DNA of 64,000 bases from Octopus vulgaris (Eukaryota). Position numbers and translations under genes: made by a program. This document shows, piece by piece, positions 53,001-56,000 of the stretch; position 1 is the first letter of the stretch; each line of letters begins with the position of its first letter. The DNA lies in assembly GCA_951406725.2 (NCBI GenBank), contig OX597839.1, forward strand, positions 38,564,001-38,628,000, in the 5' to 3' direction. The notes below the pieces were generated by a model. The model did not search any database. It was not told the origin of the DNA and saw only the letters and a program-made list of their open reading frames with translations.

Positions 53001-56000
53001 AGACAGAATCATCATCATCATCACTGATATTGCTTAACAATATTGCTTAACATCCGCTTTCCATGCTGGCATGGGTCGGACGGTTTGAGTGGGGCTGACA
53101 TGCTGGAAGGCTGCACCAGGATCCAGTCTGATTTGGTATGGTTTTCTATGGCTGGATGCCCTTCCTAATGCCAACCTCTCCGAGAGTGTAATGGGTGCTT
53201 TTATGTACCACCAGCATGGGTGCCATTTGTGTGACACTGGTATCAGCCATGACTGCGATTTTGCTTGGCTTGATGGGCCTACTTCTTGAGCACCTCATAA
53301 TACCAAAGCTCTTGGCCATTGCCTCTGTAAGGCCCAACACTTGAAAGGAACTCAGTCACTTTGGGCCTTCATGAGGCCCAATGCTCAATGCTCAAAAAGA
53401 ATTCCACCACCTCACCTCTGAGAGGCTCTTTCAAGATGAACTTGGCCACCTTGCCTCTGTGAGGCCCAACACTTGAAAGGAACTCAGCCACTTTGCCTCC
53501 AGGCGGCTCAGAAGCTCGGCCACTTTGCCTCCATGGCAACAATGATGATGATGATGATGATGATGATGATGATAATGATGATGATGATCATCATCATGAT
53601 GACAGTGATAATGATGACAATGATGATGACGACAACGACGATGATGATGATGATGATAATGACGACAATGATAATGATGACAACGATAACAATGACAATG
53701 ATGACAGCAGTGATGATGATGATGTGAATGCTGCTGCTACTGATGATGATGATGATGATGAGGTTACTAATGATAATGACATAAAAACACGTGATTTTTG
53801 AAATTGTGCCCCCTGAGCAATGACCCCTGAAGCTCTGGCCATGTTACACCACCGACAGTTTCAGCCAACTTACCTGTCCAATGTGGGTAAACTTGTAATC
53901 ATTACATTCCTGGACCCAGTGGGGCCTTGGCAACATTCGATCGATGTAAGCACCAGGGTCCAAGTAAGTGTAGTCCTCATCATTGCTACTTTTATCCTGT
54001 CGGGATTTCCGTACGGCCACGTGGATAGAGTTGGGTTGGCAGTTGGAGTGAATGGCATGACCCAGAATAGAACCAGCAACCATGAAGAAACCACCTTTCT
54101 CTTTTGTCGCTTTGATAATTTCCTCTGTTGGTTTCACATTTGCAATTATGATCTCGTAACCGTAGAATCCAGCAGCAGACGGTGCGATGAGAATCTCGTT
54201 TTCACTTCGGACAGTTATCACACCAGTCATTGGATTCACCACCTGGAAGGGAATAAAATGGCTATGAGATGGGAGGTGAGTATTCGTCCACACAGATTGT
54301 GTTGAAGTTAGAACTGACATATATACATACATACATACATACACACACACACATATATATATATATATATATATATATATATATATATATATATATATAT
54401 TAAATTAGAGATAAAACCACTATTAGGCAAATCATACAATCGTAGTGTTATATTAATTATATTCTTTTAATAATTTTGTTATATATTTAAATAATATAAA
54501 TTAAATAATCTTATGTATTGGCTTAAGTTTTTCATTGTATGATTTGCCTAATAGTGGTTTTATCTCTAATTTAATATAATATAATATTTTACTATAAAAT
54601 TGGATTCAATCCTAAATCTGATTTTTCCCTGTAAGTTTGGATTTATTCCCTAATATTTATTATTATATATATATATATATATATATATTAATAAATATAA
54701 GGGTAGCAAAAAATTCTAGAAAAAATTCTCCGCTACCAGCGGCCCAGTGACGGTCCAGTGAGAAGGAAAAGATAGTCAAAGACTATATAATATACATTCA
54801 ACAATATAAGGAATGGCCATATAGGACATTCGACTCACTAGAAAGAGCAGCCAAACTCAAACCGCTAATAGTTGTAATTCAGAATTACAACTATTAGCGG
54901 TTTGAGTTTGGCTGCTCTTTCTAGTGAGTCGAATGTCCTATTATGGCCATTCCGTATATTTTTGAGTATATATATATATATGCTTTATTTAAAGCAGCAG
55001 AAAATTCAACAAAACCTGTTACTCTGAGTTTCCCGTTCCCGTTCGTCGGACAGTTTTTGGTGGAAAAAGAGTACTCAAATACCAGTGGTAGAGTAATATG
55101 CTTTATTTAAAGCAGCAGAAAACTCAACAAAACCTGTTACTCTGAATTTCACGTTCCCGTTCGTCGGACAGTTTTTGCTATACTCCGGTATATATATATA
55201 TATATATATACGTTTAAATATTTGTTCCGGTATATATATATATATATATATATATATATATACAGATATAGATATAGATATATAGATATATATTTCGTTT
55301 TTGGATTTGGTTTGCAAGATTCTTTATGTGAGTTCGTGTGTTGAAGCATATTCTGTTGTGTCTGGGGAGAGTCATTTTCTTTTTGTGCCTTATAATGTAA
55401 CACACTCACCAGTAAAATTTCCACTTATTTCTTATTTTTATTTTCCTAAAATTTTCATTACATCTTGCAACCTTTTCAATAGTCTTGACTCTGTCCGTTA
55501 TTTACTCTGCGTTCCTTTTTGTTTGTTTGTACGCATGTGTGTGGGTCAGTGTGTGTGTGTGTGTATGTGCCTATACATGCATGCATGTATGTATGTATGT
55601 GTGTGTTTGCATGTGTATGTATGTATATATGTGTGTGTATGCATATGTATATATGTATGTATATGTGTGCATATGTATATATGTGTGTATGTGTGTGCAT
55701 CTGTATGTACGTACCCTGCATATTTATGAGCTTGCCTGTCTGTGTTTGTGTATTTTCTATGTGTGTGTGTGTGTGTGTGTGTGAGCATGTGTTTGTATAT
55801 GTATGCACCTCTGTCTCCTTGTGTGTGCATATCTGTGTGTGTGTGTGTGTTATGCAACTATGTACCATGTTTGTATGTATGGATGTGCATCTTTATATGT
55901 GTGGATCCGTGTCTTCATATGCGTCTGTTCTTGTAATCTATGTACTTATCCGTCTGAATTAATATGTGTGTGTGTGTGTGTGTGTGTGTGTGTGTGTGTG

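What the first reader, a model, noticed from the sequence alone, without database searches (positions are those of the whole stretch)
55016..55171. Tandem hammerhead ribozyme-like pair in the sense orientation of the host intron
Two copies 118 bp apart form type I hammerheads: stem I CUGU/ACAG (extendable), core CCGACGA (U4 to C), stem II ACG-GGAA-CGU, GAAA, stem III ACUC-A-GAGU, GUA cleavage site. Each copy has a different single substitution (stem II in one, stem III in the other). Established: Penelope-like elements and retrozymes carry tandem minimal hammerheads that can cleave as dimers. Inference: this unit could cut the pre-mRNA intron or release a 118-nt RNA or circle. A Penelope RT remnant lies about 900 bp away.
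Basis: partly seen in the sequence, partly recalled or inferred. Interest (0 to 1): 0.7.

Follow-up and report, generated by a model that had tools for sequence, protein, structure and literature searches.

The report
Penelope-element stubs with altered hammerhead core
Two side-by-side leftovers of a very common jumping-gene tail each carry a self-cutting-RNA motif of a known type with one normally fixed letter changed across the whole family; the pair looks like an accident of insertion rather than a device for cutting the host gene's RNA, and cutting is untested.

Summary
The two motifs are real: minus strand, 55171-55134 and 55053-55016, 118 nt apart, as described (0.02 descriptor hits per shuffled window). 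They match the hammerheads at the 3' end of Hydra-clade Penelope-like elements (PLEs): 9-nt self-complementary stem III, stem I and III arms identical to coral Hydra-2_aMil, (TA)n flanks, a similar hairpin downstream. Public contigs show a very abundant family in three organism labels; C at core position 4 is the family letter (no U4 at 4% or more), and variation shown falls on unpaired positions. The 118-nt tandem is local: the family continues differently after the first copy, no 118-nt joint was shown, and copies are often head to head. Each catalytic centre of the local dimer has a defect and a competing fold buries both GAAA boxes. The RT remnant (56058-56458) is Hydra-type but on the opposite strand and probably a separate, older insertion. 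Verdict: known kind of element; the family-wide U4C core is the one unusual feature (26 of 26 published Hydra-clade rows read CUGA). No cleavage or expression shown.

The parts
55134..55171 (-). Hammerhead motif A (5' in the RNA): stem I 4 bp, core with C4, intact 3-bp stem II, stem III with a private C-to-U change at 15.2; predicted cut between 55138 and 55137
   Evidence: 55146 differs from 98.6% of the depth laid there in run X1
55016..55053 (-). Hammerhead motif B (3' in the RNA): same core, perfect stem III arms, A10.1-G11.1 mismatch leaving 2 bp in stem II; predicted cut between 55020 and 55019
55060..55177 (-). Stub copy A: begins at the 5' arm of stem I (extension of 5 bp beyond a 1x1 mismatch), runs through an AAUAAA-containing spacer and the downstream hairpin, breaks off about 55064-55060 where the family continues otherwise
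   Evidence: loose ends before 55064 in 136, 75 and 18 contigs of X1, X7, X15
54978..55059 (-). Stub copy B: same 5' start, 3' end lost in the (TA)n run
55072..55095 (-). Bulged hairpin (5 bp + 4 bp, 3-nt loop, 3-nt 3' bulge) starting 43 nt after the cut site; same plan seen by eye at the 3' ends of three published Hydra consensi
   Evidence: fold (z -1.76, 15 of 200 shuffles as good); comparison by eye
54967..54981 (.). (TA)n run at the 3' side of the pair, shared with the arm of the neighbouring palindromic repeat
   Evidence: sequence
55178..55210 (.). 11-nt junction followed by a (TA)n run at the 5' side of the pair; the junction may be the inverted tip of another copy (untested, partly from recall)
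   Evidence: sequence
54778..54986 (.). Neighbouring long palindromic repeat of another, roughly 10-20 times less deeply covered family; not part of the hammerhead unit
   Evidence: inverted match 190 nt at 94%; depth table
56058..56458 (+). Decayed N-terminal part of a Hydra-type PLE reverse transcriptase in three frames with stops; probably a separate, older insertion
   Evidence: motifs compared by eye with Hydra ORFs
53874..54242 (-). Probable host exon downstream of the intron (123 codons, canonical splice sites)
   Evidence: no homologue found
60373..60518 (-). Probable host exon upstream of the intron (146 nt, ends in phase 0)
   Evidence: splice sites only

Best explanation
This is a pair of short 3'-end stubs of a Hydra-clade Penelope-like retroelement, probably in an octopus, inserted at a (TA)n run in an intron. 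Shown: motif anatomy, membership of a very abundant repeat family, family-wide C4, local nature of the 118-nt spacing. Inferred: the element's RT/endonuclease nicked the TA run and copied the 3' end of its RNA twice (template re-start), stopping both times at the 5' edge of the hammerhead, which gives the partial tandem typical of PLEs; the copies then took private mutations. In the parent element the motif works, if at all, as a slow double hammerhead in which two copies pair through their self-complementary stem III, probably helped by the element's protein (I put about 55% on the family motif being weakly active, 45% on its being inactive). At this locus the pair is transcribed only as intron passenger (inferred), each centre has a defect, and cutting is likely negligible and without host function.
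For: Stem I and stem III arms and A17 are identical to Hydra-2_aMil; the same stem III arms occur in 5 of 26 Hydra-clade rows, and all 26 have a 9- or 10-nt self-complementary stem III (20 and 6). Hydra elements insert in (TA)n; this pair has (TA)n on both sides. A bulged hairpin at 43 nt after the site has look-alikes at 44, 39 and 48 nt in three of the six Hydra consensi read (by eye). 5145, 1822 and 358 contigs of runs X1, X7, X15 lie on the 511-bp stretch, at identities from under 90 to over 99%, with summed depth of 1-2 million over the unit in X1. Family continues differently past 55064; 12 of the 15 joints shown join opposite strands, none is a 118-nt skip or return (4 not shown). Two Hydra-type RT remnants lie in the window. 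Double-hammerhead fold is 6-8 kcal/mol better than two monomers but 17-20 above the free ensemble for the 200-nt RNA, whose best fold pairs both GAAA boxes with the spacer. Published PLE minimal hammerheads cut weakly and only as dimers or with protein, and were not needed for insertion in vitro.
Against: No full-length parent carrying this exact motif was seen: no genome was held, the published octopus family Hydra-1_Obim has a different hammerhead, and the 6-term search of that paper's supplement found no match to this motif. Hydra-clade assignment of the stub rests on short-motif likeness judged by eye. Energy penalties have no positive control and multiloop folds are penalised by the model; for an RNA that ends just after stem I of copy B the penalty drops to 7-11 kcal/mol. 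No listed contig spans the stretch, so the tandem itself was not seen in independent data, and contigs show presence, not absence, of joints.
Confidence: 0.75

Rival explanations
1. One reading: the local pair forms an active double hammerhead in the pre-mRNA, cuts the intron and can release a 118-nt RNA or circle, with an effect on the host gene.
For: Both motifs are in the probable sense orientation, 118 nt apart, and the dimer fold is geometrically possible with 8 pairs in the shared stem III. Stem II of 2 bp occurs in natural hammerheads, and a U4C viroid variant stays infectious.
Against: Release needs both cuts; one centre has an A10.1-G11.1 mismatch, the other a U-G wobble next to the core; a competing fold made partly by locus-private letters (55146, 55123) buries both GAAA boxes. 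U4C considerably lowers activity in vitro and single changes in the CUGA turn gave low activity in a mutational scan. Copies differ from the family by unselected-looking private changes.
Confidence: 0.08
2. The 118-nt unit is the monomer of a non-LTR retrozyme family that spreads through small circular RNAs.
For: Two consecutive units each with a full motif meet the working definition of one preprint; retrozymes are proposed to derive from PLE ends.
Against: Family contigs continue with other sequence at the unit boundary (136, 75, 18 contigs); no 118-nt joint among the 15 shown; unit is shorter than the 150-450 bp reported, and retrozyme hammerheads are mostly canonical ones; Tandem Repeats Finder reports no array here.
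Confidence: 0.05
3. On the family motif alone: it is a dead hammerhead. U4C arose in a master copy and hitchhiked to high copy number because cutting is dispensable; what is kept is a structure or sequence that the element's protein recognises. (This is a sub-question of the best explanation, not exclusive of it.)
For: Hammerhead mutants did not impair insertion by a PLE protein in vitro; Naiad PLEs thrive without canonical hammerheads; domain II is 10 nt, shorter than in any of the 26 Hydra rows, and lacks the usual G10.1-C11.1 pair; no compensatory change was seen.
Against: All other core positions fit the consensus; the two family-variable places shown (55025/55143 and 55015/55133) are both unpaired, which has about 4% chance if placed at random among 39 positions (my arithmetic; related copies are not independent, and 3 X1 places were not shown).
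Confidence: 0.45
4. The resemblance to a hammerhead is chance in an unrelated repeat.
For: No Rfam hammerhead hit; no folding signal.
Against: 0.02 hits per shuffled window, and the two copies count as one event; arms identical to a published PLE hammerhead and a matching downstream hairpin and target.
Confidence: 0.03

Closest known systems
Hammerheads at the 3' end of Hydra-clade PLEs, closest Hydra-2_aMil, Hydra-2_aJap, Penelope-3_HM (Craig et al. 2021, PMC8557442; section 11, passages, supplement parts 1, 2, 52, 53 read)
   Same: Type I, 4-bp core stem I (identical arms to Hydra-2_aMil), 9-nt self-complementary stem III with one central letter, cut after GUA, U before GAA, position about 100 nt from the element end, (TA)n targets, similar downstream hairpin.
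   Different: Core reads CCGA, not CUGA (26 of 26 published rows CUGA); domain II only 10 nt; occurs here as ORF-less stubs; not the published octopus family Hydra-1_Obim.
Minimal hammerheads of metazoan PLEs (Cervera and de la Pena 2014, PMC4209133; parts 1-2 of 4 of the text and part 1 of 3 of supplement 2 read; supplement 1 could not be searched)
   Same: Thousands of dispersed motifs per genome from truncated PLEs, palindromic stem III, predicted dimer action, pairs on opposite strands.
   Different: Their helix II is larger and G10.1-C11.1 conserved; the core variant they report is U3-A8, not C4.
Non-LTR retrozymes (PMC7229834, passages; bioRxiv 10.64898/2026.07.22.740005, part 1 of 5 and passages)
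   Same: Non-coding, type I hammerhead in consecutive units, PLE-derived.
   Different: Units of 150-450 bp in arrays with expressed circles; here a single local partial tandem of 118 nt.
Natural U4C hammerhead variant of a viroid (as cited in Perreault et al. 2011, PMC3088659; section 8 and passages read; primary paper not seen)
   Same: Same core change; reduced in vitro activity but sufficient in vivo.
   Different: A rare variant in a viroid RNA, versus the majority letter of a genomic repeat family without loop-loop contacts evident.

Membership tests
Type I hammerhead ribozyme | Three helices around the core, open at stem I | tested here: met
   Descriptor hits; stem III needs a partner copy (1-nt loop)
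Type I hammerhead ribozyme | Core CUGANGA | tested here: not met
   CCGACGA in both copies and in the family: all G>A places of X1 (4), X7 (3), X15 (4) lie outside the motif
Type I hammerhead ribozyme | GAAA and NUH site with A15.1-U16.1 | tested here: met
Type I hammerhead ribozyme | Score against Rfam hammerhead models | tested here: not met
   No hammerhead family among 102 and 9 matches at E up to 10; no control was run on how Rfam scores known PLE minimal motifs
Type I hammerhead ribozyme | Compensatory changes in stems across copies | tested here: inconclusive
   No stem change at 4% or more among the 40 rows shown other than the locus-private one; variation at unpaired places only; 6 rows not shown
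Type I hammerhead ribozyme | Self-cleavage at the predicted site | not testable with these tools
   needs an assay; contigs cannot show RNA ends
Hydra-clade PLE | Hammerhead of the clade's plan near the 3' end | tested here: met
   by eye; core letter 4 differs
Hydra-clade PLE | Insertion in (TA)n | tested here: met
   54967-54981 and 55189-55210; TA runs are common in this window, so weak
Hydra-clade PLE | Linked ORF with RWK, DKT, RT and C-terminal GIY-YIG | tested here: inconclusive
   No ORF attached to the stubs; Hydra-type RT remnants at 56058-56458 (+) and 19913-19181 (-) are not shown to be the parent; no genome
Hydra-clade PLE | Partial-tandem and inverted insertion structures | tested here: met
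   Local partial tandem; 12 of 15 joints shown are opposite-strand
Non-LTR retrozyme | Family organised as head-to-tail units of 150-450 bp | tested here: not met
   118 nt; family continues otherwise at the boundary; no 118-nt joint shown
Non-LTR retrozyme | Expressed unit-length linear and circular RNA | not testable with these tools
   no raw RNA reads could be laid

The most novel reading that the evidence does not exclude
A very high-copy mini-element family, probably of octopuses, carries a working (dimer- or protein-assisted) hammerhead whose core has C in place of the nearly invariant U4 and a 3-bp stem II, invisible to CUGANGA descriptors and to Rfam; it is followed by a bulged hairpin conserved in plan across Hydra-clade elements of coral, sea cucumber and copepod that could be the signal the RT recognises. 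Thousands of intronic sense copies could then nick pre-mRNAs at low rate.
Probability: 0.3. Interest if true: 0.62.

Novelty: new variant of a known kind. Interest (0 to 1): 0.38.

Why it matters
The locus itself is ordinary retroelement debris. The family matters modestly: a core change known to slow hammerheads has become the majority letter in a very abundant repeat. If it cuts, it widens the natural hammerhead consensus and shows that standard searches miss a large family; if it does not, it is a natural demonstration that PLE hammerhead cleavage is dispensable for spread, which bears on the open question of what these ribozymes do for PLEs. Either result comes from one simple assay.

Tried and rejected
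No genome held, so no census or parent element. Rfam: no hammerhead hit; the miRNA-like hits near 54835-54927 are the palindrome, below gathering scores. Pattern scans for a 20-nt piece found 1, 7 and 7 loci in viral, metagenome and genome contigs; all 15 match over 19-24 nt only and are chance; a second pattern found 0. Loci for a Hydra-type protein in viral contigs: none. Sequencing runs: no RNA holder listed on record; the run guessed to be RNA (X15) holds family contigs but is not shown to be RNA, so it is used only for family letters. The raw-read run X21 laid 0 of 12.9 million reads: no test. Word-index homologue searches failed for the RT piece and the exon; Atlas results for both were weak leads only; Pfam gave nothing for the RT pieces or for 4 of 5 relatives, and only repeat-driven hits for the fifth. 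The loose descriptor hit at 16322 (+) lies antisense in a coding exon and is rejected. Lunse et al. on PLE hammerhead variants is not held: it may describe C4 variants. Literature searches for this family or core: (listings); only one search gave a U4C mention (viroid). Repbase and Dfam could not be searched, so the repeat may already be catalogued. bioRxiv supplements were closed. Earlier-findings look-ups by sequence, place and two word sets gave nothing for this family.

Full report
Observation. The window holds two 82-nt copies at 54978-55059 and 55096-55177, 96% alike and 118 nt apart, differing at three places. On the minus strand each reads as a type I hammerhead: 4-bp stem I, core CCGACGA, a 10-nt domain II, GAA, a 9-nt self-complementary stem III with one central letter, A17 and the 3' arm of stem I. 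Stem I extends by 5 bp beyond a 1x1 mismatch. Copy A (5' in the RNA) has an intact 3-bp stem II and U at 15.2; copy B has perfect stem III arms and an A10.1-G11.1 mismatch. A strict descriptor finds 3 hits in the window against 6 in 300 shuffles; the two copies count as one event. Rfam does not recognise the motif and the monomers show no folding signal, which is expected for a motif whose stem III cannot close on a 1-nt loop (established for PLE minimal motifs). The host gene is probably on the minus strand: splice-site-bounded open exons flank the site and long minus-strand ORFs further on carry fn3 and PAN domains. The gene model is not confirmed by transcripts. The organism is probably an octopus (look of the repeats recalled; the only named mollusc relative of the RT remnant is from Octopus vulgaris at 42% identity, which is no proof).

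What it is. The table of hammerheads in Hydra-clade PLEs (Craig et al. 2021, supplement) has 26 rows; all have a 9- or 10-nt self-complementary stem III, 5 have exactly the arms seen here, and Hydra-2_aMil also shares both stem I arms and A17. Hydra elements insert in (TA)n and this pair has (TA)n on both sides, though such runs are common here. A bulged hairpin starts 43 nt after the cut site; by eye, three of the six Hydra consensi read show a hairpin of the same plan at 44, 39 and 48 nt. The RT remnant at 56058-56458 matches 14 library proteins at E up to 0.001, aligns to them in three frames, and shares the DKT/KDHK-type motif series with published Hydra ORFs. It is on the plus strand, covers only the first RT motifs, is broken by stops and frameshifts, and is separated from the pair by other repeats and microsatellites, so it is probably an older, separate insertion. 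The published octopus family Hydra-1_Obim has a different hammerhead, so the parent of these stubs was not identified.

The family. The index listed 20 runs of 9 studies and 4 organism labels holding part of the stretch; I laid 4 of them, one of which may be the window's source. X21 laid nothing. X1, X7 and X15 (three organism labels) laid 5145, 1822 and 358 contigs. Summed depth over the unit reaches 1-2 million in X1, where the long records have depths of 18-76; the tool warns that this is no copy number, and I take it only as a sign of a very abundant family (order of tens of thousands, rough inference). Three results follow. (a) C4 is the family letter: a U4 would show as G>A at 55048 or 55166, and every G>A place counted for X1 (4), X7 (3) and X15 (4) is accounted for by rows outside the motif. 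Caveat: depth over the core is about two thirds of that over stem III, so truncated or clipped variants may be missed. (b) The version with both stems intact is abundant: 375,437 of 380,591 depth at 55146 has the letter of copy B, while 55151 shows no A>C; copy A's stem III change is private. Whether copy B's stem II letter is private could not be told, because contigs that fit both copies are placed on one. The places that vary in the family within the motif span are the centre of stem III (55025/55143) and the mismatch in stem I (55015/55133), both unpaired; no compensatory change was seen, and 6 of 46 rows were not shown (in X1: two A>G, one A>T). (c) The 118-nt tandem is local. Before 55064 the family carries other sequence (136, 75 and 18 contigs), behind 55057 and 55175 the flanks are mixed (agreement 0.45-0.49), 12 of the 15 joints shown join opposite strands, 9 of them from the 5' edge of the motif (55048-55057), and none skips or returns 118 (4 not shown; contigs cannot prove absence). 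So many copies begin at the hammerhead and sit head to head, as described for truncated PLEs and as noted, unchecked, for other genomes in this scan.

How it most likely works. Inferred: the PLE protein nicks TA-rich DNA and reverse-transcribes the 3' end of its RNA (shown for a lizard PLE); here it did so twice, giving a partial tandem of stubs. In a tandem transcript two motifs pair through stem III into a double hammerhead. For the natural RNA this fold is 6-8 kcal/mol better than two monomers but 17-20 above the free ensemble, whose best fold pairs each GAAA box with the spacer, using letters private to this locus; for an RNA ending just after copy B's stem I the gap is 7-11. These numbers lack a positive control. 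In the dimer, the centre that cuts site B has a U-G wobble beside the core and the centre that cuts site A has the broken stem II; a 118-nt product needs both. Known PLE minimal hammerheads cut slowly as dimers or only with protein, were dispensable for insertion, and left no read ends in RNA-seq. U4C lowers activity considerably in vitro though a viroid tolerates it; single changes in the CUGA turn gave low activity in a scan. I therefore expect little or no cutting at this locus and put about even odds on weak activity of the family motif.

Comparison and novelty. It works like, and is most likely a member of, the PLE hammerhead class, Hydra type; it fails the strict core test (U4) and the retrozyme unit test. 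I did not find this family or a PLE family with C4 in nine literature searches, but the most relevant paper (Lunse et al.) was not held, and repeat libraries could not be searched. Papers seen: PMC4209133 (parts 1-2 of 4, supplement passages and part 1), PMC8557442 (passages, section 11, supplement parts 1, 2, 52, 53), PMC11167929 (parts 1-2 of 4), PMC3088659 (passages, section 8), PMC7229834, PMC6765202, PMC9901934, PMC6962438 (passages), bioRxiv 2026.07.22.740005 (part 1 of 5, passages).

Verdict. Observation confirmed; interpretation partly supported. Ordinary PLE debris at this locus, with one unusual family-level feature, the C4 core, that a single assay would settle. New variant of a known kind; interest 0.38.

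Noticed in passing
window 20185-20148 (-) and 19913-19181 (-): A second Hydra-type hammerhead motif with the same stem III arms but U at core position 3 (with G8, so no C3-G8 pair), about 230 nt upstream of a decayed PLE RT remnant on the same strand.
   Followed up: partly
window 47038 (-) and 50585 (-): Two more minimal-hammerhead-like cores with clean stem II hairpins, probably stubs of other PLE families.
   Followed up: no
window 55072-55095 (-): Bulged hairpin 43 nt after the cut site; same plan by eye, with different letters in the inner stem, in Hydra-2_Amil, Hydra-2_Ajap and Hydra-1_Crog; a candidate protein-recognition signal not mentioned in the passages read.
   Followed up: partly
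window 54778-54986: Near-perfect palindrome of about 200 nt belonging to another repeat family present in all three contig sets; a weak relative at 34715-34801. Unclassified.
   Followed up: no
window 54400-54660, 35450-35763, 7068-7146: Another palindromic repeat family ending in (TA)n, three places in the window.
   Followed up: no
window 9661-60518 (-): A long multi-exon minus-strand gene with exons up to about 2.7 kb, fn3 and PAN domains; the exon next to the finding has no detected homologue.
   Followed up: partly
window 8258-8894: Tandem array of about nine 70-nt units.
   Followed up: no
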